This document shows, piece by piece, positions 35,721-64,000 of a stretch of DNA of 64,000 bases; positions within the stretch are counted from its first letter, which is position 1, and the number at the start of each line of letters is the position of its first letter. The position numbers and the translations under genes were made by a program. The stretch lies in NCBI RefSeq assembly GCF_004010195.1, contig NC_057757.1, forward strand, positions 9,777,154 to 9,841,153, given 5' to 3'. Source of the stretch: Chiloscyllium plagiosum. Its lineage: Eukaryota. The notes below the pieces were generated by a model. The model was not told where the DNA came from and ran no database searches. It saw only the letters and a list, made by a program, of their open reading frames with translations.

Positions 35721-35724
35721 TTGT

Positions 35725-36060: not shown

Positions 36061-36324
36061 AAGACACAGACAGAGTTGGCAGATCCCTTTCCCCACTAAC
36101 GCTCTGGTTTAAGAGCATCCACACTCTGCAGCCTCTGCTCCAGTTGTTGTTCATGTTACAGACCCAGGTACTGTAACTACAGTCCCCGTGCTCCATCCAG
36201 AGTTGGGTCACAAAATCCTCAGGTCTCCATGAATGTCTGGGGCAGCTCACAGCACAACCTCCAGCAACCATCCCCAACACCTCCACTAAATTTTGAATAA
36301 CATGAGTCAGGCAGAAGATTTTCA

Positions 36325-36715
36325 TAGAGTCATAGAGTCACAGAGATGTACAGCATGGAAACAGACACTTTGGTCCAGCCCGTCCTTGCCGACCAGATAT
36401 CCCAACCCAATCTTGGCGTACCTGCTAGCACCCAGCCCATATCAGTCCAAACCCTTTCCATTTATACACTGATCCAAATGCCTCTTAAACGTTGCAATTG
36501 TACCAGCTTCCACCACTTCGTCCGGCAGTTCATTCCGTACATGTACTACATTGTGTGAAAAAGTTGCCCCTTCGGTCTCTTTCCCCTCTCACACTAAACC
36601 TATGCCCTCTATTTCTGGACTCGCCGACCCCAGCGAAAATACTTTGCCTATTTACTCTATTCATGCCGCTCATATTTTGCAAACCTCTATATGGTCACAC
36701 CTCAGCCTCCGACGC
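36325..36715 (-). mobile_element. CR1/HER1 3' end
   Basis: catagagtcatagagtc tail and antisense TFKRHLD. Confidence 0.9.
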
Positions 36716-37179
36716 AAGTTCGATGCCTGCCCTTTACAATAATACTCGAGGGTTTCCTCGTGTTACTGAAAACACGATCAGCTGAGAGCTACAACCACAG
36801 GCGTTCAGTGGATAGGCACAGACTAAGTTTCAAAGACGTGAGTCAAAGCTTCTGAATCCCTCCTGTCCAACATGGATCATTAAACTGTCAACCTTTATTC
36901 TTTCTTCCGTAGGTGGTAGTAGTGCAAGAGCACTGCAGGATTGCATTTATAACATGACACAAGGGACACACGGGGAAGTGAACAACAGCCCCCACACACA
37001 TTTCACTGTTTCTGAGTTTCACAATGTCAGCACTCAATACATTAGGGACCCACAACTCAAAGCCAGGGAAAGATACGGAGGGACAGAAAAAATCACATTA
37101 AAGATAGAAACAGATAATTAAGGCAGACATAGTCCATATGGTGAAATATGGGGAAAAGGACAGGGCAGTGGGACTAATT

Positions 37180-37330
37180 GGGGAGCTGTGCGGACTATGC
37201 CGAAGTATCGCTTAGTAAAATGAACTATCTACCCCGCAATGGAGAGCTGTGCAGACCATGCCAGTGTATTGCTCAGTAAGGTGGACTGTCTACCCAGCAT
37301 GGGGAGCTGTGCAGACCGTGCCAGTGCATT
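37180..37330 (+). repeat. About 59-bp tandem repeat, 2.5 copies
   Basis: g(g/a)gagctgtgc(a/g)gac..tgcc unit recurs at about 37181, 37241 and 37301. Confidence 0.8.
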
Positions 37331-37701
37331 TCAGCCTCAGTATTGGCCGGGGATGGGATGTAGTCAGAGGAACGAAATGCAATCTGTAACCAGAACAGAA
37401 CACAGTGATCTCAATGCTCTAAATATTAAAACAGCAAGGGCAGTGATAAAATAAATCATGTTTTACAATTGAAACTGGACAGATCAACATAGAGACCCAT
37501 AAGTAACACTGCCAGAAGCAAGGAGCGAGAGAGTGAATTAACAAGTTCATTGCTGCAGTTAGTCGTGGTTTGTAAAGTGAACATCTCGATTTAGAGTCTC
37601 AGCAGGAACAATAACAGCGACAATGATAGTAGAGTCAATGAAAGGACATTATTACAGTCAATTCGGATTTATAAAATTAAAGACTGAACATTGAGACTTA
37701 C

Positions 37702-37882
37702 CAGGGACACCAACGAAAGCCAGGATTGGATAATAAAAATATTGAATAATGTAAAGTGCATATTCGATCCGCCACGATAATGGGATTCGATCATAATATG
37801 TAGAAAAAAAACAAACATCCCAATCTAAACTCCTGTCCATTCTTGATACATTCCAGTCTAATGTTCTCAGATTCTGATTCAT
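37702..37882 (-). CDS. gpr139-like: First coding exon (N-terminus plus most of TM1) of a GPR139/GPR142-like class A GPCR; 7TM exon not visible
   Basis: MNQNLRTLDWNVSRMDRSL...ALYIIQYFYYPILAFVGVP, then a phase-1 donor G|GTAAGT. YYP.LA..GVP with an intron at this point is typical of the family. Acceptor TTCCGCAG at 37987. Confidence 0.75.
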
Positions 37883-38457
37883 TGTTGGAAAATTCCAGAC
37901 ACGTGTGGTCCGATTCTGATCTCTCCCCACTGCCTCTCTTGAGCTGCCGATCCCTGTTAATGCTGTCAGTGGAGCTGCCACTCATACTGCGGAATAGCAC
38001 ATTCAATGGAACTCATTTATCATTAAAAGATTGAACGCCTCCACTGGGATAATTACAATCCATGGAGATTGACATTAATCACAGTCACTAAACAAACAGG
38101 CTCAGTTAAAACCTGCCTTATGTAACATTTATTATCTCAATAAAAGGGAACATTTACTCAGTCTGGGTGGAATAGCTGGGCGTTGGTAAGGGATGGACCA
38201 TAAATCTTTCAATCTTCTTCTTCTTTCTTCCGTGTATGTGGGAGTAGTGAAAGAACACTGCAGGACTGTTTATATTACATACTGTTTGTAAAGGAAGATA
38301 GAGATACATAAACAGACCAGCTACATAAGGTGACCAGTAAACACTATATTTTTGCCCATTGGCGCTGTGCAGTGCTGCTCTTTGTGACATCATTCAGAGC
38401 ATTGAGACTGCTGATCAGGAACAGGAGAAGATAATTCTGTCCCCATATGTCAGTCAG

Positions 38458-38745
38458 AGAGGGAAAGGAGGAGACCATCAGCCTCTCGACCCTGTTACAA
38501 ATGGACAGTGGGAGGCCATAAAGCCCCTCAGGTTTGTTGCAGAGGGATAGGAGGAGATAATTCAGTTTCTCGGGCCTGTTGCAAATGGACAGAAGGAGAC
38601 AATTCAGCCTCTCGGGTCTGTTGCAAATGGACAGAAGGAGGCCATTCAGCTTCTCGGGTCTGTTGCAGAGGGTCAGGAGGATACCATTCAGCCTATTCAG
38701 TATGTTCCAGTGGGACAGAAGGAGGCCATTCTGCTTCGTGAGCCT
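38458..38745 (+). repeat. About 41-bp minisatellite, about 7 degenerate copies
   Basis: Unit ggacagaaggaggccattcagcctctcgggtctgttgcaaat. Confidence 0.85.
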
Positions 38746-38789
38746 GCTATTCAGTAACTACCACTTTTAAAATACTTATGGAGAAGAAC

Positions 38790-40390
38790 CGTCCTGACAT
38801 AAATGGTAAAGTTCTAAATTGAATCAGGCCAACTTTGAACGTTTTATATGGGCAATTTCAAAAGCTGCTTGGGAGGAGCTCGTGGCAGGAAAGTGGGAGG
38901 CCTTCAAAAATGAGATTACAGAGTCTAGATAGAGTATGTTCCAGTTCATGAGCAATGCAAGGCTGGTCGGGAATTCTGGATGGCGAGCGGAATTGAGGTT
39001 CTGTTCAAGAAAAAGACAGAAGCATATGATAGGTATAGACAGTAGGGATCGTGTGAATCCATTGTGGAGTGCCAGGGTTGTAGGCTAATACTCAAGAGGG
39101 AAATCAGGAGGGTAAACTGGGGGCATAAGACATCTTTCGAAAATAAGGTAAGGGACAATCCAAAGTTTTGCTACCAATACATTGAGGTCAAAAGAGTATC
39201 TAGGGAGAGGACAGGACACTTTCAACATCACCAAAGTGACCTATGTGTGGAACTACAGGAGATTGGTGAAATGCTACATCAATGTTTTGCATCAGTACTT
39301 ACTGTGGAGTAGGATATGGAAGGTAGAGAATTTGGGGAAATGAATAGTGATATCTTGAAAAGTGTCCATATCACAGAAGATGAGGAGCTTGCCATATTAA
39401 AATGCACTAAGGTGCATAACCACCTCTGACCTTTTATGTGACTTTTAGATAGGCACTTGGAAGTAAGTACATTGAAGGGCACATAGGTTAGTCTGATCTT
39501 AGAGGAGGAGAAACTGCCGGCACAACATTAACAGTTCAAAGGCCTCTACTATGCTGCACTGTACAGTGTTCTATGACCTGATCAGGTGTACCCCAGAATC
39601 TGTTGGGAATCGAGGGAAGCCATTGTTTGATATCGAGCTGAGATTTTTTTTTATCATGGACAGCCACAGGTGAGGTTCTGCCATTGTTTAAGAACAGTTG
39701 GTAAGGAAAAGTGAGGAAACTATAGACCGGTGGGCCTGATGTCATTAGTGGGGAAGTTGTTGGAGGGGATTCTGAGGGACAGGATTTACTTGTGTTTGGA
39801 AAGGTAAATTAAAATTAGCGATAGTCAACATGACTTTGCGTGTGAGAAATCTTATCTCAATAATTTAATTTAGTTTATTGAAGAAGTGATGAATAAGACT
39901 GATGAAGGCACAAAAATAGAACTGTGGAATAGAATATGGACTTTAATAAGGCATTCAAAAAGGTTCTGCGTGGTAAACTGTTAAGCAGGGTCAGATCGCA
40001 TGGAATACAGGGAGAGCTGTAGATACTTCGCTCGAAGGTAAGAGATTAAGGTAATGTTGGTGCAGCATACTTTATTTGGACTGGGGGCCTGTGACCAACA
40101 GTGGACCAAAAGGATCTAATGGATTTTGTCATTTCTGTAAATGATTTGGATGTGAATATTAGTAGGAATGGTTTGTGAGTTTACAGATAACACCAAAATT
40201 GGTGAGGTGGTGGACAGTAAAGATGGTTAACTCAGAGTAAGACGGGACCCTGATAAGATGAGTCAAAGGGCCGAGGAGTGGCTGATGGAGTTCATGTCAG
40301 ACAATCGGATGGTGTAACATTTTTCTGAGCCAAATTGGGTCAGCACTTGTAGGCAGGATCCTGGGAAGTGTTTCCAAACACAGACATCTA
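38790..40390 (+). mobile_element. Degenerate CR1 LINE
   Basis: NPKFCYQYI and VGKLLEGILRDRIY-type remnants. Confidence 0.8.
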
Positions 40391-40399
40391 ACTAGAAAC

Positions 40400-40740
40400 T
40401 ATAGAAACCCTGCAGTGTGGAAACAGGCCATTTGGCCCATCTAGTCCACACTGACCTTCCAGATAACATGCTGACCAACACACTCATACGTTACCCCAGT
40501 AACTCTACATTTCCCTAGACAATCCACTTAACCTGCATATCCCTGGATACTGTGGGGCAGTTTAGTGAGGCCACTGAACCTATCCTGTGCATTTTTAGAC
40601 TGTGGGAGGAAAACCAAGCATCCACAGGAAACACACACAAACAGGGCAAGAAATTGCAAACACCGCACAGAGTGTCACCAATGGATGGAATCGAATCCAG
40701 GTCATTGGTGTCCTAACGCAGTATTGAGAGCCGCTTTGTC
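40400..40740 (-). mobile_element. Old HE1-type SINE
   Basis: gtgtggaaacaggcc...gactgtgggaggaaa. Confidence 0.75.
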
Positions 40741-42067
40741 ACCTAATGATCATCAGAGAGAGTGACTGATTTCTCCCGCTTTCTCTGGATCTGTCACATC
40801 AGATGGTGTCAAATTCCAGCGTGGTGCCTCTGTCAAGCCCTCCTTTACCTTCACCCCAGGATTCACATTTCAATGGACAGGGCCTTAAGCTGTGACTGAC
40901 ACATTGCCTTCAAATCTGCCCTCACCCCTTCCCCTCCTTTCCAGATCAAGTGTTCCATTAATACTGCAACATGCAAGATAATTGCTGATCTAAAATAAAA
41001 CGAACAGCTGTATACTCTGGAGATCGGTAAACAGTACTGTTGTGATGACGACTCCCCAGATTTGAAACATTGACTATGCTCTCTTCTGACAAAGGATTGC
41101 GAGAAAGTGAATTCCTGATGAAGGGTTTCTGACTGAAACATAGTCTTTCCTGCTCCTCGGATTCTTCCTGACCTGCTGTTCTCTTCGGCGCCCACACTTT
41201 TCAACTTTCTTCCTTCAGCTGCAACCAGAACCGTTGAGTTTTACCTGCAAATTCTTGGTTATCTAATTTCCTGTTTATAACATAAACCAAGATTTCCCTG
41301 CAGTATTGACTTCCATGCACATCTTCCACCAGTGTTTGCTTCTCCTTCTTGGTTCTAAGCTGCAATCAAACTTTCTGTATAAACTGAGCACCGTGGTGAA
41401 ATGAATGGTAGATTCAGCGAGATTTTTCTTGAGGCCTTTCTTGATGTTACAAATTCTCCCTGCATTTTGTTCGAAAGATGCATGGATCAGAAAGACTGAG
41501 AAGGATATGGGCCAAGTGCAGGAACATGGAGTGAATGTGGACCGAATGTCATGGAAAGATACGTTCACAGGTTTCAGAAATCTGAATGTAGACATGTCGA
41601 TAGCATCTGGAAACATAAGCCAACATTACCAGGAATGCTGGGTGAATGGGATATTGTTGTGAGTTCAGATGATGGAGAGTTTTGCATGAGGATTTGTTCT
41701 GCAACTTTGTACCTGGGAGAGGGGTCTGCAGAGTCTTTGACTCTGGGCTGAATCTAACACTAATTTCTCTCGGTGTCATTTTCATTGAGTGACAGAGGTT
41801 AAGTCTGTATGAGACTGAGTTAGTTTCCTGGTGTTATTTGATCGAACTCACCTCATTAACTACTCTCCCCACCGCATGATGTCCATGTCATTCAATGCCA
41901 GACTGATTCTCCCACTCATCATGGTTAGAGGTACTTTCCATCGCCGGAAATCCCTGGATATTCCGTGATCCCTGGCACTGATGCCAAAAATAAAGGCCAG
42001 CGGGCAAATAATTGAGCTTTCTCAGTTCGGAGTTGCCCTGCCCAGTTTAGGCCGAGCATGGCAGTTA

Positions 42068-42240
42068 AGACAATACATAATATACAATAGACAATAGGCG
42101 CAGAAGTAGGCCATTCGGCCCTTCCACCCAGCACCAACATACATTATGATTATGGCTGATTATCCACAATCAGTATCCTGTTCCTGCCTAATCCCTGTAA
42201 CCCTTGATTCCACCATCTTTAAGAGCTCTATCCATCCATA
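42068..42240 (-). mobile_element. LINE (CR1/L2) 3' tail
   Basis: (acaatag) tail followed by gaagtaggccattcggccc. Related tail at about 54135-54280. Confidence 0.7.
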
Positions 42241-42508
42241 AGGGGTAATTACACTACGGGTTTGTCGACAGGGGCAATGATGTCCTGGTGGACGGGGTAG
42301 TAGAGAGGGGGAGCATTCTCTTCTCAAAGGGAGCCACACCACAGACCCACCAAGCTCAACCACCCAGCTCAGTGCAGTATCTGTGGTCTGAAGAAAATGT
42401 TCAGCAATAGAGGACAAGCATCAATAACTTTCCCCACTCTGTCAGGATAAGGGACACTGTATTCTCTCTGCTCCCTCACACTCACAGTATATCTGTTATA
42501 GCACTTAC

Positions 42509-42570
42509 CTCAGAACAGGACTCATGCTCCAACATTCTCACTGCTGCAGTCAGCACATCCCCCTCCTCTG

Positions 42571-42606
<36 letters not shown>

Positions 42607-42634
42607 GCCTTTGTTATACCCCCACAAATTTATA
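42509..42634 (-). promoter_or_regulatory. Candidate TATA box (TATAAAT, 42634-42628) and first exon with GAG|GTAAGT donor, upstream of the GPCR exon
   Basis: TATA about 30 nt upstream of a (GA)n tract, with a consensus donor at 42508. Confidence 0.4.
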
Positions 42635-43009
42635 GAATGCTCTGGAGAGTGCTGATTATGGAATGTTCCAGATAACGTTCCAAACAATTCCCAGTTTCAG
42701 GAGAATGACAGTGCACCAGTGTGGAAAACATGAGGGAAAGGAAAACCGTGCTTTTTTCAAATTAAAATTACAGGCACACGAAATTGAAATCCATCCTGAG
42801 ACCATTCCGTCCTTCAAACGTGTTCTAACATTTAATAAGATGGGGAGTGATCGAACTGTCTCCTGAGCTCAATGTTATAGCAACTTTCAGTCCTTCAGCC
42901 CCCGGCTTCCTGTCACTGACCAGGTGACACTCAGGCATTTTTATCCGGGGTTTCCTCAAGCATGTGTTCCTTAGGCATTTCCCATGGGGGCGGACTCTCC
43001 TTCCAATAT

Positions 43010-43295
43010 GGGCGGCACGGTGGTTTGCACTGCTGCCTCACAGCGCCAGAGACCTGGGTTCAATTCCTACCTCAGGCGACTGACTCTGTTGAGTTTGCAC
43101 GTTGTCCCCGTGTCTGCGTGGGTTTCCTCCGGGTGCTCCGGTTTCCTCCCAGAGTCAAAAGATGTGCGGGTCAGGTGAATTGGCCATGCTAAATTGCCCA
43201 TAGTGTTAGGTAAGGGGTAAATGTATGGGTGGGTTGCGGGTCGGTGTGGACTTGTTGGGCCGAAAGGCCTGTTTCCACACTGTATGTAATCTAAT
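43010..43295 (+). mobile_element. Full-length HE1-type SINE
   Basis: tRNA-like head, body and CR1-derived tail. aatatg duplicated at both ends. Confidence 0.95.
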
Positions 43296-43739
43296 ATGTC
43301 CCATCAGCTTTCTATTTTCATGCAATAATAAGCATGCTTCACATAGACCAATCAGAAATATACTGTTCTTTAATAATTGTCGATATCTAAACACAATTAT
43401 TATTCTGGTTATTTTGCTCGTGTCACCTTATTGCATTCAGCTCAGGATAGCATCTAAACACTTGTTTCTACAATTTCCAGCAAAGAACATTTTTATCCTC
43501 GGCTAGTACCTTGACCGTTACCTGAATTGTACCTTTTTCCTTGTTATGAAAGTTTCTCTTGCCCTTTGTCCGTGATTGTTTCTATCTGAAACAGTTACAC
43601 AGGATCCCACTCAGTTAGCTGGATGGCTGGTTTGTGATGCAGAGGGAGGCCAATAGCGCAGGTTCAATTCCCCATACTGACAGAGGTCACCATAATGGGG
43701 ACGTTCTCTCAGCCTCCAGGGCTCAACTCCCCTTTCCTG

Positions 43740-45600
43740 CTAACCCTTCATATCCCTCAACTCGCTGTTATGTCAAAAACCAATCTAGCCCATCTGTAAA
43801 AACATTCAGTGACCCAGCCTCTACAACTCACTGGTGAGTGAAATTCAGACTTCACGACCTTCTGAAAGAAGACATTTCTTTGTATCTCAGTTTGAAGTCG
43901 ATATCCCTTATTCTGTTTCTGAGTTTGAGACTCTGTCCAGGTGTGGAAACACATTCTCAGCATCTACCTTGTGAAGCCCCCTCTATATCTTTTATGTTTC
44001 AGTAACATCACGGTCATTAATTTCAAGCACAATGAATAATCGCCTCACCATTTTAGATGTATTCAATAATTCAATCCTTTCATCCCAGGAACCTGCGTAT
44101 TGTATCATTCTAGTCACTTGCTGCATCACCATGTTGACTTTATGTTTCATACACAGGAACACTCCAATCCTTTTTTACTGCTCCTTAGTTGGGAATCTTC
44201 TTCATTAAATAACAGCCTGTCTTTTGGTTCGCAGTGTCATTCACAAACTCGGATGTATATTGCATTCAGCTCCCGCCATCGGGCTGTCAGAATACACTGT
44301 AAATAACGGATGCCATCGGACTGGTATTTGTGATACCCCAGTAGATATGTCTTTATCATAACGATTCATTAATCCTGACACTCCGATTTCTATGTGCTAA
44401 CCACCGGTCATCCCATGCTAATACATTGTCCGTAACACTATGAGCTTCTATCTTGTGTAAGAACCTTTATTGAAGATCTCTGGTAAGCCGCATGCCTACC
44501 AGTTCCCCTTTATCAAGTCCGCATGTCACATTTTCCAGGCTCTCAGAATAACTTTGCAGGCAGAATATAGTTTCCCATTCACAAAACCATGCTGACTCTG
44601 CGTGCAGCTTTTCTAAATGCCCTTCAATTCTTGCCTTAATAATAGACTCCCGCAGATTCCTAGTAATTATGGTTGGGTTAAATGGTTCCTACTTTCTGCC
44701 TAGCTCCTTTCTCGAAGACAGGCGCCACATTGGAAGTTCTCCAGTTTCGCTGGAATACTCCTGAAATCCAAAGAGTTATAGAGTCTTTCACACAGCACCA
44801 CCAGCCACTCTGTAACCACTTTTAAAAAAAAAACAACTGTGAATTACTGCTGACCGGTCTATCCTGACTCTTATCTGTTTATCAAAAATCATTGCTCCTT
44901 TTGTTAGAGACAGTTCAAAAACTTGCCTCTTATTAACAGTTTGTTTATATCATTGACATGTTTACAATTCCTTCCCCTGTGAGGAACAATGCAAAGTACC
45001 GGTGTAATTCTTTGCCTGTTCCCTGTAGCCAGTTCCCCAGTCACATCCTCCAAAAGACCTCAATATACTTCCCAGACTTCATTTCTACGTAAGGTCACAC
45101 ACTCATTTTGAACTTCTTTCATATATACAGAAAAGTTTGTGATGCTTGTTTTCAAATTTCTTGCCAATTTACTTACATCATATCCATTGTTCCCCCTTTT
45201 CCTCGCTTTCTAGATTCTTACAGTCACATCACGCACGAACAGACCCTTTGGTCCAACTTGTTCATGCTCAACTAAACTCGTCCCATCTGCTTTCACGTGC
45301 CCCATATGCCTCTAAACGTTTCCCATTTATATTTGTCCAAATGTATTTTAAATGCTATAGCTGTGCTTTCATCTACCACTCTTCCTCCTGCAGCTCATTC
45401 CATACACCCATCACCCTATATGTGAAAAAGTTGCACCATTGGCACTTTCACATCTTCTAATGTTCAACTTAAATCGATGTACTCGATGTTTGAACCCCTC
45501 CCCCACTTCACCCCTCTCCGGGGGAAAATACCTTGGCTCTCCACCCAATCCATGCCTCTCATGATTGTATAAACTTCTATATCGTCACTTTTCAACCTCC
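43740..45600 (-). mobile_element. Old degenerate CR1 fragments
   Basis: acaaaaccatgctgact (SQHGFV antisense) and 3' tails. Confidence 0.7.
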
Positions 45601-46860
45601 TCCACTCCATCTAATAATAACTTCAAGAACAAGCATTTAATCGTAAGCACTGCAAATTTGAAACAATATTCAAAACGACAGGTAAACAGCACATACCAAA
45701 CTTCATTCTGTGATTTGTTTTATCTCAAAGTAACAATACTAAGACAGCGTGAAATCCTTACCAGTGCCATTAGGAAGTCAAACACTTGAATTCCTTTTTC
45801 GAAAGAGGGTGATGATCCCTACANNNNNNNNNNNNNNNNNNNNNNNNNNNNNNNNNNNNNNNNNNNNNNNNNNNNNNNNNNNNNNNNNNNNNNNNNNNNN
45901 NNNNNNNNNNNNNNNNNNNNNNNNNNNNNNNNNNNNNNNNNNNNNNNNNNNNNNNNNNNNNNNNNNNNNNNNNNNNNNNNNNNNNNNNNNNNNNNNNNNN
46001 NNNNNNNNNNNNNNNNNNNNNNNNNNNNNNNNNNNNNNNNNNNNNNNNNNNNNNNNNNNNNNNNNNNNNNNNNNNNNNNNNNNNNNNNNNNNNNNNNNNN
46101 NNNNNNNNNNNNNNNNNNNNNNNNNNNNNNNNNNNNNNNNNNNNNNNNNNNNNNNNNNNNNNNNNNNNNNNNNNNNNNNNNNNNNNNNNNNNNNNNNNNN
46201 NNNNNNNNNNNNNNNNNNNNNNNNNNNNNNNNNNNNNNNNNNNNNNNNNNNNNNNNNNNNNNNNNNNNNNNNNNNNNNNNNNNNNNNNNNNNNNNNNNNN
46301 NNNNNNNNNNNNNNNNNNNNNNNGATTGCAACAGATTTATTTTTAACAGCTTCTCGAATTAAATTAACAGATACGGAACAAAAACAGAAATTGCCAGAGA
46401 AACTCAGCAGGTGTGAACACTGTCAAAAATGAAGTTCTAAAGAAAAGTGATACTAGACTCAGAACAATAACTCCATTCCTCTCTCAGTAGATGCTGCCAG
46501 GCTTACTGAGTTTCTCCAGACGTCTTTCTGCCTGTTTCAGGTTTCCAGCATCTGCAATACTTTGAACAAAAGTCGATTATTTTTGCACACAACAGATTTT
46601 TTTTAAGAAACTCTTGAGCTTGAGCTCTATTAGTTGAGTCATGATGGAATTCCATGTCATGGACCTGGCTGTGATAGAGACTCTGAAATCCAGGCTCACC
46701 GAGACCATCGAAGATGGTGGTTAGGTTTGCGCTTCATGCTCCCCTCACCTGTGACATCGTGCCAAGTGCCAGCTGAAGTTGTGACCATGGATGTGATCAT
46801 GCTTTACATTAGCAACACTAGCCTCTCATCCCTCTGACCCACCCCTCACATCCCAATCCA

Positions 46861-50432: not shown

Positions 50433-50776
50433 TTGAAGTCGTCAGGCATTAGAGGGCTACAATCAGACCAAAAGTAACTTGTGACCAACTCATCACTGAG
50501 TGAGGTTACACACGAGTCCTGTTACAAAGTCCTCGGATAAGGAATTTAATGGTAGGAGAAGGCTGCTGATGATGCAGGAAATGACAATGTGGAAAGGGTC
50601 AGACTCTGTTAGAACCTGGTACCACACATAGCCTCTGCTGGAGTTTTAAAATTGGATTTGGCACTGAGTTACACGGAGCTCAATCCTGCTATCTCTCTTT
50701 CAGCAAGCAGACAAAATTTTACTGCCTTTGACAATATTCATCCCAGGCAGGAAGGAGTAAAGTTATCAGTGAGATT

Positions 50777-52562: not shown

Positions 52563-52953
52563 ATTATCAGCAGGAGCTTCTAAAATATCCTCTGATAAGT
52601 TCTATTATTCTGACAAATGAACAATCTATCGCCATGGTTTCAGTTTTAGTGATGAGTGATTGGTGGCTTTGTCAATGAAGCTGACATCACAGTATTAGTC
52701 TTAAAGGCTGAAACTGGTGAAGTTAAGGGTTTGCTTGGAGGCCAGGTGAGGGCCAGAGAGCCTGGAGCGGTTACATATTGTCACTTAGAGCTGGCACACT
52801 GGGGCCATCGGGAATTGGTGCATGTTCTCAATTTAAACTACACCCTTTATATGAATGTATTTATTAATTTAAGTGCAATTGTACTTAATGAATGCATTTG
52901 TGAACTGGTATGCTTTCTTAATTACCCTATTAACCAGTTCCGTTGACAAGTAT

Positions 52954-53570: not shown

Positions 53571-53589
53571 CGTTGACAAGTATCCCAAG

Positions 53590-54420
53590 GTTCCTCTGTT
53601 CCTCTAAACTTCCAGTGTTCTCTCATTCATTGAGCACTCCCTTGTCTTGTTCCTTCTTCCAATGTGCACCACTTCACATTTATCAAGTTACATTCCATCC
53701 GCCCACCTGACCAATCTGTTTATATCCTCCTCTAACCTCACACCTTTCTCCTCCCTGTCAACCACTCGGCTGATCTTTTTGACATGGACATACTAACTTA
53801 CCATCTCTCCCACATTCTCATCTACATCATTTTTGAAGGTCACAAACAATAAGGCAGCCAGCACTGATCCCAGTTGTACATCACTGCACACCATGCTCAA
53901 GCCACACAACCAGTCTTCTACCACCACACTCTGCCTCCAGTGGCTAAGCCAATTTCAGATCCATCTCACCAAGTTATACTGGATCTTATGTGCTTTTACT
54001 TCTGTATCAGTTTCCCATGAGTGAACTTGTCAAAGCCTTTGCTGAATCCACATACTTTACATCTGCTGCAATGTCCTGATCTGCTTAGTCACCTCAGCGA
54101 GAAATTCAACCAGGTATGAGCTCTATATGAAAAGTCCATAAGGCCATAAGACCATAAGACATAGGAGCGGAAGTAAGGCCATTCGGCCCATCGAGTCCAC
54201 TCCGCCATTCAATCATGGCTGATGGGCATTTCAACTTCACTTACCCGCATTCTCCCCGTAGCCCTTAATTCCTTGTGATATCTGATTATCCCTGATCAAA
54301 CCGTGCCTCTCCAAACAGAGATTAATTCTCTCTTGCAGAATTTTGTCCAATATATTCCCAACCTCTGATGTGAGATTTAGCATGTTTGTGATTCCTGGTT
54401 AATCTCTACTATGCTTTTGT
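53590..54420 (-). mobile_element. Degenerate CR1 fragment
   Basis: Antisense RT remnants. Confidence 0.7.
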
Positions 54421-54653
54421 CAATTAATCAGGTGTCTGATGCCTAACCATTGTAGTCTGTCAGAGCAATTTGGAACAGAGAAATCTGTCTGAATCCAGAA
54501 ACCAGGGACACACTTCCCTGCACCTAAAACAAGACTTCTGTTGAAATACACAGTACAGCACTGAGATCCACACAAGAGGAAAGATATTATGATTGTAGAG
54601 AGTGAGTAACCGGTTAGCTGGTACTGTCTGGTATGAAGACTTACAGTTACAAA

Positions 54654-54876
54654 TGATTTGGAGATTCCGGTGTTGGACTAGGGTGTACAAAGTTAAAAAT
54701 CACACAACACCAGGTTATAGTCCAACAGGTTTAATTGGAGGCACACTAGCTTTCGGAGCGCCAGGGATGTCCTCCACTATCACCTGATGAAGGAGCGGCG
54801 CTCCGAAAGCTAGTGTGCTTCCAATTAAACCTGTTGGACTATAACTTGGTGTTGTGTGATTTTTAACTTTGTACAA
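54654..54876. mobile_element. Palindromic Penelope pLTR insertion (second family)
   Basis: About 79-bp near-perfect inverted arms across 54684-54875. TSD ttacaaa (54647-54653 / 54877-54883). Confidence 0.9.
54781..54815 (+). ncRNA. Minimal hammerhead ribozyme motif
   Basis: CAC-CTGATGA-AGGAGCGGCGCTCC-GAAAGCTA-GTG: stem I CAC/GTG, stem II GGAGC/GCTCC. Confidence 0.65.
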
Positions 54877-55364
54877 TTACAAAGAAGGACTAAGAAAAAT
54901 CAACATGATTTAGCTTTTTTAAGGAGCTAAAGGATAGTCAACATTGTGAAAAGATATAAATAAATCTTTTGCTGATTATCGAGCAGTTAAGAACAAGGTA
55001 CTGAGGTTGCATGCGAGAGATATTGTACAGAAGGCGAGAGAAACATCCTTTAAGTAAAAGTTTAGTTGGTGAGAATTACTGGGGTAGTGGTTGATATTGA
55101 AACTCTTCACATTCTGGTGAATGCAGGAAATGGGAAGACGGATGCAGGATGGCATGGGTAAGTGTGTTCAGGACTACTTATTCACATAAAGAGCAAACAC
55201 TGCCACAGCCTAATTGGACTGAACGGCCTGTGTCTTTGTAACTTTCAATGATCAGCCTGTGTTGACTGGAACATAAAAACACAAGAATGAAGTATTTCAG
55301 AGCAGTGATATGCCCAGTGGCCCCGAAACTGCACATCCCTGGACACTAGGGGCAAGTTAGCAAA

Positions 55365-55908
55365 TGTTCTGTGCAATTCTGGTCTCCCTGCTCTAGGAAG
55401 GATGTTGTGAAACTTGAAAGGGTTCAGAAAACATTTACAAGGATGTTACCAGGGTTGGAGGATTTGAGCTACAGGGAGAGGTTAAATAGCCCGGGGCTGT
55501 TTTCCCTGGAGTGTCAGAGGCTGAAGGGTGACCTTATAGAGGTTCATAAAATCATGAGGGGCATGGATAGGGGGGAATAGCCAAGGTCTTTTCCCCAGGG
55601 TGGGGGAATCCAGAGCTAGAGGCATAGGTTTAGGGAGAAGGAGGAACGGTTTTAAAGGGACCTAAGGGGCAACCTTTTCACTCAGCGGATGGTGCATGCA
55701 TGGAATGAACAGCCAGAGAAGGTGGTGGAGGATGGTATAATTGCAACATTTAAAAGGCATCTGGATGGGTATATGAATAGGAAGGGTTTAGAGGGAAATG
55801 GGCCAAGCGTTGGCAAATGGGACTGGATTAATTTCGGATATCTGGTCGGCATGGACGAGTTGCACCGAAGGATATGTTTCCGTGATATATATCTTGATGA
55901 CTCTATAA
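55365..55908 (+). mobile_element. CR1/HER1 3' end
   Basis: QFWSP...KLERVQK and TFKRHLD motifs, plus tail. Confidence 0.95.
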
Positions 55909-56449
55909 CTCCAGCCTGCTCTGCCATTCAATGAGACCAAACGGGATCTGGTGTGGCCTAATCTCCAAACCTATAGACAGCCTTGACTACCCAAAACTTA
56001 ACTCAGTCTCACGTAAGTTCAATGACCCAGCCTCCACTGTTTACTGGAGAAGAGTATTTCACAGACTAACAAGACTTCAGCTTTTAGCTTTAATACAAGA
56101 AACCTTAAGGCATCCTTTCTAGCTTCCATGGGGCTCATTCCTAGATTCTACAAGGCAGATCCATGGGCTGGACAGGCTTGGTCTTCTTTAGTCTTCCCTT
56201 CCAGGGAAAACAATATCATTACTCTCTTCTCAAGGTTGAAATGGGCCATGAATGGCGATTTCATGATGGGCACAAAGGCAAAGAGCAATGTCAACTGAGA
56301 CAGTCCAGGTGTCAAAATAACTTCTCAGGATTTTCATGCTTTTAATTTGATTTTTCTCCCGGATTCGATTCGAAATAGAGAGCCTGTTTTGGATGTGGAG
56401 TGAAATGTCTTGAATTTGGAGGTTGAAGCACAAAAGATGTGCACCTTCG

Positions 56450-56732
56450 GAGGATTGGCCAAGCTAAATTGTCCTGTGGTGTCCAGAGATGTGCAGGTTA
56501 AGGTGGATGGGCCATGTTAAATTTCCCCATCGTGTCCTGAGATGTGCAGGTTAAGGTGGATTGGCCACGTTAAGTTGCCCAAAATGTCCAGGGTTGTACA
56601 AATTAGGTGGATTAGCCACGGAAAATGCAGTGTTAGGGAGGTGGGTCTGGGTGGGATGCTCTTCAGATGGTCAGTGCAGACTCAATGGATTGAATGACCT
56701 CTTTCCTTACTGTAGCAATTCCATGATTCTAT
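56450..56732 (+). mobile_element. HE1 SINE 3' part with about 52-bp internal unit in 3 copies
   Basis: gatgtgcaggttaaggtggat(t/g)ggcca repeated. Confidence 0.8.
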
Positions 56733-57679
56733 GTCAAACTTCAGAGGTGGGAAGTAGTTACAAGTAGATACAAAAACTTATTTCTAGAAACACAATGGGA
56801 AGCAAAATCTTAAAGCAGCTCACTCGTCGAGGAGTCCCGATATCAAAAACGGCCAACAGATCCTTCACTTACCCCTGGGCACTTGGAAAACATCCTGCAG
56901 TAAGTCAAACATTTTGTGTTAAAAAGATCACTCATAACTGTACATCCCTACTGATCTCCAAATTAGATTAGAGACCCCAAATATATTGCTAATGTAGTAT
57001 TACAGGAAGCGATTTTAGCAATATAGAGGAGGATACATATGGAAGTATTTAAAAGGTCGGCAGTCCTGAAATTAGAGCCATCATTTCACAGAATCATAGA
57101 ATCATTATGATGCAGAAGGAGGCCATTCGGTCCATTTGTCCCTGTATTGGCTGTATTCTCTAGTATCAGTCTCCTGCCTTTTCCCCAGATCTGAGCAATC
57201 ATTCAGCAATACCCTCCAGAATGGTTCAATTGAACCTGCCTCCACCACAGTTCCAGGCCCTAGGTTCTCACTGAGAGAAAAAGGCTTTTTTTCTCATATC
57301 ATCTCTGCTTCTTTTACATATTACATTAAATCCTTTCTCTCTTGTTCTGGTTTCTTTTATGAGCAGGAACAGCTGCTTGCGATCTACTTTGTCCAGCCCA
57401 CTCATGATTTGTAAAACCTCTACCAAATCTCCTCTCAGTCTTCATGTCTCTCCAAGGAGAAGAGTCACAGCTTCTTCCATCTATCCCAATCACTGAAGTT
57501 TCTCAGTTCTGGGTTACAGGGAGAAAGCAGGAAAATGACACCAAATGAAAAGGCCCTTCAGTGAGCCAGTGCAGACACAGTGGCCTCCATCTGCTCCATA
57601 ACAATTCTGTGATTTAAAGAAAATAAACTTGGAGGAAATGATTTGCATTTGGAAAAGTATAGGTCAACAAATGAAAGTT

Positions 57680-57810
57680 TCCTGATGAAGGGCTTTTGCC
57701 TGAAACGTTGATATTCCTGCTCCTCGGATGCTGTCTGACCTGCTGTGCTTTTCCAGCACCACTCTAATCTTGACTCTGATCTCCAGCATCTGCAGTCCTC
57801 ACTTTCACCT
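57680..57810 (+). mobile_element. Short Penelope pLTR insertion beginning at the hammerhead motif
   Basis: cctgatgaagggcttttgcctgaaacg, with 11-bp TSD aaatgaaagtt (57669-57679 / 57811-57821). Confidence 0.9.
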
Positions 57811-58682
57811 AAATGAAAGTTAATATTAACTTCTTCTAGGCAAATGTTGTATAAGCAATGTGATTGAGTTATTTGATTAAGTATTGGATAGTTTTGATGA
57901 GAATCATGTGATTGATGGCTTGTAAATGGAACTTTTAAAAGAATTTGAACAGGTACCATATAACAAACTGGTTAGCAAAATAAAATTCTAATGGGGTTAA
58001 AGTGACAGTGACGTCAAGAACGTAAACTAGACTATGGAACAAGAAACAAGGAGCACTTGGACACAGTTAATTAAGGACTGCCCAGTGATCAGTACCAGGG
58101 CCATTGCTGTTTCTAATATACAATCATGACCTGACCTCTTTACATAGCTTGCAGATGGAATGAAACTCATAATTATAGTGATCAAGAGGAAGAGAAGCAG
58201 CAAATTGAAGAGAATTAAGGCAGACATGTAAAATGGGCAGACGTGCAACAGATTGAATTTATTTTGACAAGAGTGAAGTGATCCATTTGATCGGGAATGG
58301 GGAGAGCTGATGTAATGTACACGAACAGAGTGGCCCAGGGAGTATCTTGTCTCTGAGAGAGGCAGGATGATTTGGGCTGGCTGGAATCCTTGTCTTTATT
58401 TTTAAATTGAGGCTTAGGGCTGATCCTTACAGGGGTCTGAATGATGTGGGTAATGGTAGAATGGGTGGCAAAATCAGTCAAGAGGTCTGGCGAGCCCTAT
58501 CTCAATGTCAGGATCATCTCATTCCATCTTTTATGTTTTTCACAAGTGGGAGAGCACGGTTTTTGTTAGGTAGTAGAAGTTTTCAGTTGACAGGAATTTA
58601 TAGAGTTATAGAGTCATACAACACAGAAATAAATTCTTCGGTTCAACTGGTGTATACCGACCAATTTTCCCAAGCTAATCAG

Positions 58683-58968
58683 CGTGATGGCTCAGTGGTT
58701 AGCACTGCTGCCTCACAGCACCAGGGACCCGGGTTCGATTCTAGCCCTGGGCAACTGTCTGTGTGGAGTTTGCATATTCCCCCCGTGTCTGGGTGCTCTG
58801 ATTTCCTCCCACAATCCAAAGATGTGAATTGGCCATGCTAACATGCTCATAGTGTTCAGGGATAAATATAGAATAGTAGGAAAATAGGTCTGGGTGGGTT
58901 ACTCTTTGAAGGGTCGGTGTGGACTTGTTGGGCCAAATGGCCTATTTCTACACTGTAGGAATTCTGTG
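58683..58968 (+). mobile_element. HE1 SINE nested in a minus-strand CR1 tail (58600-59018)
   Basis: ggctcagtggttagcactgctgcctcacagc head. Confidence 0.9.
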
Positions 58969-59018
58969 AAACTAGTCCCATTTGCCTCAATTTGGCCCAT
59001 AAACCTTCTAAACCTTTC

Positions 59019-62000
59019 TGTAGTGATTGTAATGGTGTCAGCCAGCCGGACCTCTTAGAATATGAGTTCCCTGATTGGGACTGTTAACCTGGTCCAATCA
59101 GGGAGCCCTGGCTGAAAAATAAGAACAGGAATGTCAGAGATTCTGTTCACTCTGACAGCTGTGGGTATGAAGGCCTGACTTGTAAATAAAGGGGCACTTG
59201 GTGATGAGATACGACCTCCATGGAGTTGTTTCAGTGGCAACGAGAGAAAAGCATGCTCCTGAAGACTTTTGCTCATAATTGTTGTCTTTCAGTTTGGGGT
59301 AAGCACCATGTAATTATTTGAGAAACTTAACTCGTTCAATTCTACTGTCAAAGACAGGGCCCAGTATGGGGCAAATATGCAATATTTTCTACAGGCAAAT
59401 GACATTGGGATAGATGAAAAGTAATGAGTAATTCTCCTGACAGCTTGTGGTCCCACGGATTACTTGGTTATTAGGAGCCAAATGTTCCCTGAGGCACCAA
59501 ATATTAAAACCATTCAAGAGTTGACAGATTTAGCTAAGGAATACTACAACCCTAAGCTTCCTCTAATTCTGAGCCACTATCATTTTCACTTGGCAGTTCC
59601 AGAACCAGAAGAACACAGGATTTTTGACTAGGTTGAGGCAACTGGCAGAGGCATGTAACTTTGGTTTAACCTTTAATGAGATGCTGAGAGACTATTTGGT
59701 ACGTAGGACTAATGATATAACCGTGCAAAAGTATGCAAAAGCCCACCTGGACTTAAAGAGGCATGATAACTGGCTCTGACATTGGAAAATGCAGTAAGTG
59801 GAGCATACGCATTGCACGGTATTCTGATGGAAGTGGACACCTTCACCAGTCCGACTGAGATTGTGGAACTCAATTGCTTAGCCTTATTCAGGACATATCC
59901 TGAACAGAGGGACTCTGGGTCAGCATACAACAAGACCCAAAACAAAACCACGTCTCAACCAAACCGTTCAAATTTTCTTCAGGAAGCAGGCTGGTAAGCC
60001 AGTATGCAGACACGAGACAACAGCAGAGTCCCACCAGATATAAATTGAATAAAAGAACTCATAGACCAATACCCAGGAGATTGCACACCTTGGGAAGTCT
60101 CCCTACACCTGGTTTGGAACAGTTAAATTGTTTTGCAACATCCAAATCAAAACCAATCAAAATAAATGTCTGGTTAAATGGTCATCCGGTTCTAATGGAG
60201 GTCGATACCAGCACAGCCATATCAATGATAGCAGAACCAGTCTTTAACAAAAATCAGTCTGGTCTCCAACCTTTCAATTTGTACAAAACCCCGACCAGAC
60301 TAAGAACCTATACTGGGGAACCTTTACAGATGAAGGGTACAACTTCGGTTCCGGTCTCGTCTGAGAAGCAACTAGCTCAGTTACCACTGATTGGAGTAAC
60401 CACGAAATTGGTTGAGAAAGATTCAACTTGATTGGCTCAATTATTCAATTAGAAAATGGCTAACTAAATGAAGTCCTAATTAAATACCCATAAATTTTTC
60501 AGAAAAAAGTCGAGGGACTATCAAATTGAATTGAATTGAATTTATTGTCACATGTACCGAGGCACAATGTCTTGAGAGCAATCAGGCAGATCATAGAGTT
60601 GAGTAGCATAAATAGTAAATAATAGGTAAACAGCAGCAAAAACAAAAACATAGGTACAGGCCAATGTTCAGAGTTTGTGAGTCCATTCAGTAATCTAACA
60701 ACAGTAGGGTCGAACTGTTTTGAAAGTGGCTGGTATGTGTGTGTTCAGGCTCCTGTACCTTCTCCCCGATGGTAGAGGTTGTAGAAAAACATTGCCAGGG
60801 TGGGATGGATCATTGAGAATGCTGGTGGCCTTTCCTTGACAGTGAGCCTGGTAGATGGATTCTATAGATGGGAGGTTGGCCTTTGTGATTGCCCGGGCTG
60901 AGTTCACCCCTCTCTGTATCCATCTCCAATTTTGAATGGTACGGTACCATACCAGGTAGTGATACATCCAGACAGAATGCTCATGATGGCGTACCTATAA
61001 AAGTTGGCAAGAGTATTCACCATCATGCCGAATTTCCTCAGCTGCCTGAGGAAGAAGAGACGTTGTTGGGCCTTTGTAACCAGTGCGTCCACATGAAGAG
61101 TCCAAGAAAGCTTGTTGTGGATGACCACTCCCAGGAGCCTGACACTGTCCACTCATTCCACCTCAGTGCTGTTAATGTATAGGGGGGCATGTGTAACATC
61201 TTGTTGAAAGTCAATAATGAGTTCCTTGGCTTTGCCAGCATTGAGATCTAGGTTTTTCCCATTGCACCATTTTTCCAGGTCTTCCACCTCCTGTCTGTAG
61301 TCTGGTTCATCACCATCTGAGGTTCGACTGACTACGGTGGTGTCATCAGCCAATTTGCAAATGGCATTAGTCTGGTGTTTGGTGATGCAGTCCTGGGTAT
61401 ACATTGAGTCCAATAGGGGGCTGAGTATGTACCCCTGGGGGACTCCAGTGTTGAGTGTTAGTGAAGATAAAATATTGTCCCCAACCTTGACTGATTGTAG
61501 CCTGTAGGTCAGGAAACTGAGGATCCAGTTGCAGACAGTGGGGCTTAGTCCGAGATCACTAAGTTTAATAATCAGTCTCAAGGGGATAATAGCGTTGAAG
61601 GCTGAACTGTAGAAAATGAGTAGGATTCTTACGTAGCTGTTCTTGGTATCAAGATGTTCTAGGATTAGTGGTGCTGGAAGAGCACAGCAGTTCAGGCAGC
61701 ATCCAAGGAGTGTTCTAGGCAGGAGTGAAGGGCAAGTGATATGGCATCTGACGTGGATCGGTTGGTCTGATAGGCAAATTGAAGTGGGTCAAGAGTAGTG
61801 GGAAGGCTAGAGTTGATTAATGCTATGACCAGCCTTTCAAAGGAGCTAAGACCAACTCAGATGTCGACCAGGAAGCAATTCCACGATTCTGCAAGGCCCA
61901 CCCAGTGCCATTTGCTTTATGGACAAAAGTGGAGGCAGAAATTAAAAGACTGGAAAGAGAAGGAATGATCAAACCAGAGCAGTCTGCAGATGGGCAGCAC

Positions 62001-63105
62001 CAGTCATACTGATTGTGAAGCTTAATGGGTTGGTTCACCTTTGTAAGGATTTTAAACAAATGGTAACCTGCTTCTCATGGCTGGATAAATACCAATCCTT
62101 TGCATAGAGGATTTATACTCAAAGCTGGCAGGGCGACTGTCCTTCACGTAGCTGGACATGAGCCATGCGTACCTGCGATTGTGGTTAGATGAGGATTGCC
62201 AGAAGTATGGGATAATTAATACCAAAAAGGTTTGTACCAATTTACAAGACTGCCACTTCGGGTATCATCAATCTGTGCAATCTTTCAGCAGATGATAGAG
62301 AATATTTTACAAGGTCTACCCTAGCTCACTATTTATGAGATGATGTGATAATAGAAGGGAAGACCAATAAGGAGCACTTAGACAACTTGGACATAGTCCT
62401 TTGATGTTTCTCCCAGGTGGTTGTATGCCTTAGAAGGGAAAAATGTATATTCTAGGCACCCCAAGTGACCTGCTTGAGCTACCCAGTAAACAAGATCGGG
62501 TTACACCCATTAGAAGATAAAGTGAGGACGAGTAAAGGTGGCCTAGCTCCCATGCCTGTACTAGAGCTTAGGTCTTGCCTTGTGCTGGGGAATTATTACA
62601 GAAAGTTAATACATAACCCAGCCTCTATCCTGGTACCTTTGCATCAACTCTTTAAAAAGGGTCAACATTGGAAATGGTCGCATAGCCAAGCCATAGCTTT
62701 GAGGGAAGTGAAGGAACAGCTATCAACATCTAAGATGTTGGCACACTATGATCCCAAGCAAGATCTAATATTGACATACAATGCCTTTCCACATAGTATT
62801 ATGGTAACATTAGCTCATAGGCGGCTCAATGGAGAGGAACGCTCAATAGCATATGCTTGCAGAACATTGGCTAATGCAGGATGCGAATACGGCCAGTTGA
62901 AGATGGAATGTTTGGTGGTCATATTTGGAGTCAAGAAATTGCACCCATACCTTTACGGATGTAAGTTTGTAATAATAACGGACCACAAATTCCTGCTCGG
63001 TCTACTTAGAGAGGACAAGGCAGTGCTGCCTGTAGCTTCAGGCCAAATTTAGCAGTGGGCTCTAATACCAACCACGTACAATTACAAGTTGGAATACTAT
63101 CGTCC
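59019..63105 (+). mobile_element. Gypsy (Mag-like) LTR retrotransposon, inactive and 3'-truncated: 5' LTR 59019-59233, PBS, gag, protease, RT, RNase H
   Basis: TG...CA LTR, PBS TGGCAACGAG (tRNA-Ser-like), MEVDTSTAISMI protease, LAHYDP...TDHKFLLGL RNase H. No integrase or 3' LTR. Confidence 0.92.
60526..61841 (-). mobile_element. Rex1/Babar LINE inserted into the Gypsy pol
   Basis: TGVPQGYILSPLL, LADDTTVV and KAQQRLFFLRQLRKF motifs, (ttgaa)n tail, tcaaa at both junctions. Confidence 0.9.
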
Positions 63106-63231
63106 TGAGATTAGAGATAAGATGTTAAATCTAAATGTTGCTTACTTAATATGTTTTTTTAATCATCTATGTGTGTTATTCCTAATTAACGTGATTAAAT
63201 CGTGATGATCATTTGTTTTCTTCTTTTGAAG

Positions 63232-63893
63232 GCTACCGGTTTTTCCCAAGTAAAGAAAACAGTTAATGGTCCTGGATCTGAAAGCGTTCCTCCAGGAAAG
63301 GACTCATCCACAAACAGTCAAGCAAAGCATTTTTCACTCAAAGATATGACAATCAGAATTGTCAAGTCACAAACAGGGATGACGGAGGGCATGCTGAGGA
63401 ACTGGCTCCTCAGGGAAAGCCTGTCCCAGCATCAGGGTTGGATGGGAGCAGTTCCTCAGTTACTGTTCACACCACGGTGCATCCATCCTTGAGAACAATG
63501 CCAGCAGATATGGTGACCAAAAGTGACATTGACACAAATGTCCACTCTGACCAAGCTGCTGTGGACTCATTATCAGCGTACAAAATGCCAGATCTGAAGA
63601 CCCCCTCCAGTCAGAGCCCTATGAAACAGCCAGATGGAGCTTGTCTGATCCAAGATGTCCAATCTGTGCACTTGCAATCTTACATACCATCCAATGCTAA
63701 CAGGCCTATTCAGTTCTACACCTCACCTTCTGATAAACCTCCAAATTACTACTTCTGGTACTGTCCTTACTGGCAGATTCAAAATAACCCCCTCTGTACT
63801 CCCATTGGCACAGGGCAATCTCCAGTCCCTCAAAACCCAGCAGAGATGTCGGAGCCAGCAGACGTGGAACCCACTGCCTTTGACCATGTCTGA
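63232..63893 (+). CDS. Candidate terminal exon encoding an S/P/T/Q-rich unknown peptide, with a probable 1-nt frameshift
   Basis: Strong acceptor tttgttttcttcttttgaag. One frame is open 63232-63492 and another is open 63282-63893. No transposon motifs. Confidence 0.45.
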
Positions 63894-63900
63894 ATGTGCT

Positions 63901-63964: not shown

Positions 63965-64000
63965 CTGTATGATATTTTCTTCCACATTCCTGATCCTCAC

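What the first reader, a model, noticed from the sequence alone, without database searches (positions are those of the whole stretch)
36162..63893. Hidden multi-exon gene remnant of unrecognised family threaded between the transposons (plus strand)
Seen: unique islands between transposons have AG/GT boundaries at 36162-36301 (donor reads ATGAGT), 36782-36837, 36913-36977, 37335-37385, 38373-38448, 40945-41026, (41571-41641), 41931-42063, 42774-42923, 46634-46724, 50704-50756, 52644-52745, 54464-54601, 56788-56899 and 63232 onward. Skipping the bracketed exon, they splice into one frame: PRYCNYSPRAP...[289 protein letters not shown]...NTMGSKILKQLTRRG...ATGFSQVKK. That is about 11 stops in about 430 codons, roughly half my rough random expectation. 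The ORF track misses most of it. Inference: a pseudogenised gene with a globular core and low-complexity ends that I cannot assign to a family. Caveats: I chose the splice sites by eye, several donors are weak, the bracketed exon does not keep phase, and an alternative frame over the later exons has a similar stop count.
Basis: partly seen in the sequence, partly recalled or inferred. Interest (0 to 1): 0.7.

Follow-up and report, generated by a model that had tools for sequence, protein, structure and literature searches.

The report
Broken shark gene, overextended exon chain
Only the last two of the fifteen proposed exons match a known protein: they form a broken copy of an unnamed shark gene that is intact in catsharks and the horn shark and likely encodes a membrane-anchored scaffold, while the first nine are likely chance picks from a much-repeated receptor-gene segment across an assembly gap.

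Summary
The 15-exon gene is a chimera.

(1) Islands 56788-56899 and 63232 onward are real. They form the two-coding-exon orthologue of RefSeq 'uncharacterized' proteins of Scyliorhinus canicula (LOC119953482), S. torazame and Heterodontus francisci. The coding region starts at ATG 56795 and ends about 180 bases beyond the window. This copy has a frameshift, a nonsense codon, a 32-bp duplication and accelerated change, and no intact copy was found: a likely unitary pseudogene. Its ~55-residue C-terminal module has no Pfam or PDB match and recurs in two repeat-rich open frames elsewhere in the genome.

(2) The nine islands at 36162-42923 lie in a 16-kb piece between two 500-N gaps. The coding piece there is on the minus strand: a first exon of a huge two-exon class A GPCR family, with no second exon nearby.

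(3) Four middle islands are single-copy, without homologue, and unresolved.

The scan noted the receptor family before on other DNA; four look-ups showed no note on the pseudogene or its module.

The parts
56788..56899 (+). First coding exon of the broken gene; ATG at 56795, 35 codons, phase-0 donor GTAAGT
   Evidence: 17/35 identical to Heterodontus XP_067872013 residues 1-35, pairwise E 3e-6; aligned at the N-terminus of all three orthologues
63232..64000 (+). Last coding exon; continues beyond the window to a stop at about 64183, AATAAA at about 64194
   Evidence: phmmer E 1.6e-30 to P0001; tblastn pieces in three frames, C-terminal piece 57/72 (79%) identical to P0001; single copy
63400..63430 (+). 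Frameshift (approximate place): similarity to the orthologues moves to another frame
63891..63893 (+). Nonsense codon TGA, aligned with Gln of the catshark proteins
63898..63965 (+). 32-bp tandem duplication (second frameshift) just before the conserved C-terminal module
   Evidence: TRF period 32, 2.1 copies
59100..63110 (+). Decayed Gypsy-type LTR retrotransposon, with a LINE RT piece at 61153-61788 (minus), inside the 6.3-kb intron of the broken gene; ends approximate
   Evidence: Pfam RT_RNaseH_2 E 5e-20, RVT_1 E 3e-12, weak aspartyl protease E 0.2
46634..46724 (+). Single-copy island, no homologue found; possible non-coding exon, unresolved
50704..50756 (+). Single-copy island with a good acceptor and donor; possible 5' UTR exon, unresolved
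52644..52745 (+). Single-copy island; possible 5' UTR exon, unresolved
54464..54601 (+). Single-copy island with GTGAGT donor; candidate 5' UTR exon (the next exon starts only 7 bases before its ATG), unresolved
29877..45823 (.).
45824..46323 (.).
37702..37882 (-).
   Evidence: a 67%-identical exon lies 15.5 kb upstream of an open 7tm_1 exon at C27; donor kept in 24 of 26 aligned hits
38039..38055 (-).
   Evidence: O/E-like 10-mer intact in 22 of 24 aligned rows, TAATTA in 13 of 24 (counted by eye; no background computed)
36077..36862 (.).
   Evidence: 71-76% identity to the introns at C27 (both islands) and C30 (island 2 only)

Best explanation
The proposed chain joins three things: a broken two-coding-exon shark gene (56795 to about 64183), four single-copy islands of unknown status, and, across a 500-N gap, flank and intron DNA of a much-duplicated minus-strand receptor exon; the broken gene is likely a unitary pseudogene of what is predicted to be a membrane-anchored, mostly disordered scaffold protein.

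Shown: orthology-level similarity, three lesions, accelerated change, single copy, and a C-terminal module shared with two other frames.

Inferred mechanism of the intact protein (about 50%): the orthologues begin MGNQISK or MGNKISK, which fits the N-myristoylation pattern MGxxxS (recalled), so the protein would hang on a membrane. About 170 Ser/Thr/Pro-rich residues would act as a flexible tether carrying two conserved patches, an aromatic and proline-rich motif and a ~55-residue module. The module would dock a partner protein, since the same module ends two otherwise unrelated repeat-rich frames of 696 and 3130 codons. In this genome the first frameshift would end the product at about 121 residues, before both patches.

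The receptor exon is most likely a stranded first exon amplified by partial duplication (birth and death), or one cut off from its second exon by the assembly.
For: Orthologues.
Lesions; the orthologous stop position also reads through by seven codons.
Relative rate on 315 non-overlapping columns: 74 changes unique to the window copy, against 30 (Scyliorhinus, p 2e-5) and 40 (Heterodontus, p 0.002).
No intact copy: 3 matches among 39 candidates scored, two being this locus.
Module: C26:47881274, 47% identical, E 1e-8; C100673:24860, genome E 0.04, pairwise E 1e-10 to P0006; 14 invariant columns.
First nine islands, splice sites in aligned copies: acceptor 36913 AG in 0 of 24; acceptor 42774 in 1 of 22 and its donor in 0 of 21; donor 42063 in 2 of 19; first donor GT in 0 of 26.
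Shared stops: 23 of 26 (36298), 22 of 22 (40996), 20 of 21 (41966).
Identity in the islands is 0.88-0.94, within the 0.83-0.95 range of 100-base bins; pN/pS is 0.92 against 0.87 and 0.90 in the other frames; nonsense variants 12 against 13.1 expected.
Against: The lesions are seen in one assembly and were not checked in DNA reads. Synteny with the catshark locus was not tested. Only three species gave homologues, and neither expression nor function of the protein is shown by my calls. Both structure predictions failed (mean pLDDT 30 and 39), so 'module' rests on sequence conservation alone.
Five of the nine islands keep both AG and GT in most copies (about 86-100%, near the background median of 88%). 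Island 36782 has no stop or indel in 25 of 25 copies. Two of the five stops are not ancestral: TGG at 36955 in 17 of 23 copies, TAC at 42826 in 12 of 22. An old or non-coding plus-strand exon among them is therefore not excluded.
Against 'dead receptor exon': nonsense variants are depleted, 1 against 6.1 expected among 23 close copies, p 0.016, and 0 against 7.2 with the diverged copies included.
Confidence: 0.85

Rival explanations
1. The reader's full 14-15-exon plus-strand pseudogene is real.
For: All acceptors are AG and the phases chain; stop density is about 60% of background; the last junction is right; two stops are sense codons in most copies.
Against: The chain crosses an N gap between multi-copy and single-copy DNA. 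Four sites are almost private to this copy or absent, three stops are shared, and there is no coding constraint. All three orthologues start at the Met of island 14. No homologue of the first 12 islands. Random islands reach the same stop density.
Confidence: 0.03
2. The two-exon gene is intact in the animal and the lesions are assembly errors or one allele.
For: Fragmented assembly (101,977 contigs); C-terminal piece still 79% identical to catshark; splice sites and poly(A) signal intact.
Against: Three lesions of different kinds, loss of the stop position and of Ser6, and a 2-fold rate excess are not what a sequencing error gives.
Confidence: 0.07
3. The receptor first exons in the amplified unit are live alternative first exons, each with its own promoter, spliced to a shared downstream second exon (UGT1A or clustered-protocadherin style).
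For: 10 first-exon hits (one partial) and no second exon in 320 kb of C8. A recurring order of exon types on C8, C26 and C101681, with no or only tiny gaps between several same-strand neighbours. On C26, two first exons precede one second exon. Frame open in 88% of 26 hits against a mean of 50% in 460 overlapping control windows. Nonsense depleted. Donor and promoter-like motif kept.
Against: Missense is not depleted (62 against 52 expected) and frameshift events are at background (5 against 5.6); only 16 of 23 close copies keep ATG, frame and donor. The nonsense test is one of several run. The C26 second exon is itself broken and 71 kb from the nearer first exon. The C8 region has 12 N gaps (13,840 N) and mixed orientations. 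Introns of 34-38 kb occur in the family. Earlier notes on similar layouts judged them birth-and-death (unchecked).
Confidence: 0.12
4. The four middle islands (46634-54601) are 5' UTR exons of the broken gene, so their in-frame stops mean nothing.
For: Same strand, single copy, usable splice sites; the coding exon begins at an AG 7 bases before the ATG, so some upstream exon is expected (inference).
Against: No junction seen among the 15 joints displayed (576 not shown); no cross-species DNA available.
Confidence: 0.3

Closest known systems
Scyliorhinus canicula LOC119953482 (XP_038633741.1); S. torazame XP_072338099.1 and GCB72182.1; Heterodontus francisci XP_067872013.1 (all 'uncharacterized' or 'hypothetical')
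   Same: Colinear from Met1 to the C-terminus; 53% and 50% identical over 315 columns, 79% in the C-terminal piece
   Different: Those records are open frames of 331-343 aa (GCB72182.1 is a 149-aa C-terminal part); this copy has a frameshift, a TGA, a 32-bp duplication, Leu for Ser6 and a read-through of the stop position
Unnamed open frames at G000 C26:47879396-47881483 (696 codons) and C100673:24830-34219 (3130 codons)
   Same: End in the same ~55-residue module
   Different: Long tandem Pro/Ala/Thr/Ser/Glu repeats instead of the short tether; open frames; no other similarity seen
Shark two-exon class A GPCR family that databases label 'probable G-protein coupled receptor 139' (label recalled and from earlier notes)
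   Same: The window's minus-strand exon is 67% identical to a first exon lying upstream of an open 7tm_1 exon; 140-141 second-exon matches scored from 7,231-7,966 candidates
   Different: No second exon in the window, 80 kb to its left or 80 kb to its right. Kinship to GPR139 itself is not shown by my calls: a second exon found no PDB chain at E 1 or better
Variable-first-exon loci, UGT1A and clustered protocadherins (recalled)
   Same: Runs of first exons with donors and no second exon between them
   Different: No shared constant exon or junction shown; mixed orientation; weak and mixed constraint

Membership tests
Unitary (non-processed) pseudogene | Intact counterpart in related species | tested here: met
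Unitary (non-processed) pseudogene | Disabling lesions in the coding region | tested here: met
   frameshift, TGA and 32-bp duplication in the assembly
Unitary (non-processed) pseudogene | No intact copy of the same gene in the genome | tested here: met
   only distant module-sharing frames; the assembly has gaps
Unitary (non-processed) pseudogene | Intron retained (not a retrocopy) | tested here: met
   6.3-kb GT-AG intron between codons 35 and 36
Unitary (non-processed) pseudogene | Relaxed constraint | tested here: met
   74 against 30 and 40 lineage-unique changes; protein level only, no dN/dS
Unitary (non-processed) pseudogene | Lesions present in raw genomic reads | not tested
Unitary (non-processed) pseudogene | Syntenic with the intact orthologue | not testable with these tools
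   no other shark genome can be searched here
N-myristoylated proteins | MGxxxS N-terminus (pattern recalled) | tested here: met
   met in the three full-length orthologues; the window copy has Leu at position 6
N-myristoylated proteins | Lipid shown on Gly2 | not testable with these tools
   needs experiment
Shark two-exon class A GPCR family | First exon ending inside TM1 with a phase-1 donor, homologous to first exons of intact genes | tested here: met
Shark two-exon class A GPCR family | 7tm_1 second exon downstream on the same strand | tested here: not met
   none within about 117 kb downstream, with N gaps in between; so filed as a gene fragment, not a gene
GPR139/GPR142 proper | Sequence similarity to solved GPR139 | tested here: not met
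   no PDB hit at E 1 or better for a related second exon; no tree built
Variable-first-exon array | Tandem first exons with own promoter and donor, none with its own second exon | tested here: inconclusive
   seen on C8, C26 and C101681, but with mixed orientation and gaps
Variable-first-exon array | Several first exons spliced to one constant exon | tested here: inconclusive
   38 reads in one run, no joint at the donor
Variable-first-exon array | Purifying selection on the first exons | tested here: inconclusive
   nonsense depleted; missense and frameshifts not

The most novel reading that the evidence does not exclude
The amplified unit inside the finding is one cassette of a variable-first-exon receptor array: runs of promoter-plus-first-exon cassettes of several types, kept free of nonsense changes although they have no second exon of their own, splice to a shared 7TM exon. 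That would give sharks a protocadherin- or UGT1A-style way of swapping receptor N-termini.
Probability: 0.12. Interest if true: 0.8.

Novelty: new member of a known kind. Interest (0 to 1): 0.3.

Why it matters
The long hidden gene dissolves, which is the main result. What remains is modest but real. It is a lineage-specific loss of a gene kept in catsharks and the horn shark, and a small C-terminal module with no Pfam or PDB match that marks at least three disordered shark proteins and gives a handle on their function. The surplus of open first exons over second exons matters for anyone counting the shark receptor family. If those exons proved to be alternative starts, it would be a new way of diversifying GPCRs.

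Tried and rejected
Rfam on 35500-64000: no match.

Recoding or selenoprotein reading: rejected, since the stops are TAA, TAG and TGA mixed. Immunoglobulin cluster: only one RSS-like heptamer of each orientation in 29000-46323 and no Ig-like frame noticed; dropped.

P0002 and P0003 (FIVAR-repeat proteins): treated as compositional hits. Longer and shorter homologues of the C-terminal half: none among 86 and 3 candidates (weak evidence). ESM Atlas: no usable hit twice. AlphaFold: two models below pLDDT 40, so no fold search was run. PDB by sequence or profile: best E 0.087-0.43. A weak likeness to Chlamydomonas FAP92 (E 0.43) did not reappear with a larger profile, which however modelled the full-length protein.

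RNA: no RNA holder listed. The lay on 47600-64000 was swamped by repeats. None of the 15 joints shown matches a proposed junction, 576 were not shown, one run laid nothing, and depth over 62916-64000 was zero in two runs and under 5 in a third. The lay on 36716-38460 gave 38 reads, none 99% alike, spread over islands and gaps alike, and 3 joints, none GT-AG.

Papers (search listings with abstract starts only; none read): 'LOC119953482' 0 papers; GPR139 + shark + expansion 4 unrelated; elasmobranch + olfactory + GPR139-like 0; two searches listed nothing on this gene. The library lacks most subscription papers, and supplements were not searched.

Full report
Setting. The window is G000:C48:9777154-9841153 in a 3.56-Gb, 101,977-contig genome. 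The homologues found are all from sharks, so I infer a shark.

Observation. The islands, boundaries and peptide are as quoted. The chain has 11 stops in the first 378 codons and 16 in 636, of all three types; background is 0.050 per codon. So the stop deficit alone carries little weight.

The chain crosses a boundary. Two gaps of exactly 500 N (29377-29876, 45824-46323) enclose a 16-kb piece. Probes from it match at least 40 places at 77-98% identity, flanks included (40 scored of 484 candidates; 41 matches from 40 scored of 1,771). Whole-unit alignments run up to the gaps and do not continue into the window's flanks. Probes right of the gap are single-copy: 46634 apart from a 60-base repeat at the probe's edge, 50704, 52644, 54464 and 63232.

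Islands 1-9. I aligned 20 fetched loci and four longer regions, chosen mostly from the DNA-similarity lists, giving 19-26 hits per site. Identity in the islands (0.88-0.94) is within the range of surrounding bins. The acceptor at 36913 is AG in 0 of 24 copies, the acceptor at 42774 in 1 of 22 and its donor GT in 0 of 21, the donor at 42063 in 2 of 19, and the first donor in 0 of 26. Stops at 36298, 40996 and 41966 are shared by 23 of 26, 22 of 22 and 20 of 21. pN/pS is 0.92, like the other frames; nonsense variants are 12 against 13.1 expected. Against my reading: five islands keep both dinucleotides in most copies, island 36782 is lesion-free in 25 of 25, and two stops are sense codons in most copies. 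Islands 1 and 2 also match intron DNA of intact receptor genes, so they may be conserved non-coding elements.

What the unit does carry. On the minus strand, 37882-37702 is an open first exon ending in a GTAAG donor. A 67%-identical exon at C27 lies 15.5 kb upstream of an open exon that scores as Pfam 7tm_1, and another at C30 lies 9 kb upstream of one. Of 10 regions of 20 kb fetched downstream of first-exon hits, those 2 held a second exon; two more have one at 34 and 38 kb. The family is very large, and earlier notes call it GPR139-like. That label is not tested here: a second exon found no PDB chain. No second exon lies within about 117 kb downstream of the window's exon, gaps permitting. 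In 320 kb of C8 there are 10 first-exon hits and no second exon, with 12 gaps. Constraint on the exon is mixed. It is open in 88% of 26 hits against a 50% control mean. Nonsense variants are 0 against 7.2 expected, or 1 against 6.1 among 23 close copies. But missense is 62 against 52, frameshift events 5 against 5.6, and 16 of 23 copies are fully intact. I read it as a stranded or assembly-separated exon and keep a variable-first-exon array at 12%.

Islands 14-15. The 203-codon frame at 63282 hit three proteins among 1.84 billion representatives; the best (E 1.6e-30) is S. canicula LOC119953482, clustered with two S. torazame records, and the other two are FIVAR repeats. A second search added only Heterodontus XP_067872013 (2 of 1,645 candidates passed, the query included). 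The orthologues start at the Met of island 56788 and continue through island 63232 in three successive frames to about 64183, followed by AATAAA. The lesions are a frameshift near 63400-63430, TGA at 63891, a 32-bp duplication at 63898-63965 and read-through of the orthologous stop. On 315 columns the window copy has 74 unique changes against 30 and 40 (one search's first count used overlapping pieces and is superseded). No intact copy was found. The first 12 islands show no similarity to these proteins (best E 0.62) or to 30 kb around the C26 paralogue.

The module. The last ~55 conserved residues recur at the end of a 696-codon repeat-rich frame on C26 and a 3130-codon frame on C100673, with 14 invariant columns. 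Pfam, PDB sequences and the Atlas name nothing, and both structure models failed.

Mechanism. Shown: orthology-level similarity, lesions, rate excess, shared module. Inferred (about 50%): the intact protein is N-myristoylated (MGxxxS, pattern recalled; Ser6 is lost here), mostly disordered, and uses its C-terminal module to dock a partner. The window copy would stop at about 121 residues, before both conserved patches.

Islands 10-13 are single-copy with no homologue. They may be 5' UTR exons; the RNA lays did not test this.

Verdict. This is a new member of a known kind (unitary pseudogene of an annotated but uncharacterised shark gene), interest 0.3. Papers were seen only as search listings.

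Noticed in passing
G000:C26:47879396-47881483 (L087, L088): 696-codon open last exon of Pro/Ala/Glu/Lys/Thr repeats ending in the shared module; it begins at a splice acceptor, so upstream exons are expected; not identified
   Followed up: partly
G000:C100673:24830-34219, minus (L155-L158): 3130-codon open frame in GC-rich DNA, repeat-rich, ending in the same module; followed at once by more than 10 kb of tandem repeat open in several frames
   Followed up: partly
G000:C8:10040001-10360000: Ten receptor first-exon hits in both orientations and no second exon in 320 kb (13,840 N in 12 gaps); the order of exon types recurs on C26 and C101681
   Followed up: partly
window 37846-37880 and copies: The receptor N-terminus varies between copies by in-frame 42-bp units carrying a WNV(S/T/P) motif, some of them potential N-glycosylation sites
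   Followed up: no
   Followed up: no
window 36077-36305 and 36716-36862: Intron segments kept at 69-85% in distant receptor loci (C16, C27, C30); possible regulatory elements; no Rfam or Pfam match
   Followed up: partly
window 12900-14830: Looks like a second decayed LTR-retrotransposon remnant by eye; its 134-codon frame at 14403-14807 was not searched
   Followed up: no
window 46831-47542: 40-bp minisatellite, 17.8 copies, 96% match; it gives the long Pro/His/Thr-rich frames of the ORF track
   Followed up: no
window 54145-54260: SINE-like piece hit by about 30,000 reads in run X1 that run on into other sequence: transcripts from another locus, not this one
   Followed up: no
G000:C26:52438217-52438849: Broken receptor second exon 71 kb downstream of the nearer of two first exons
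   Followed up: partly
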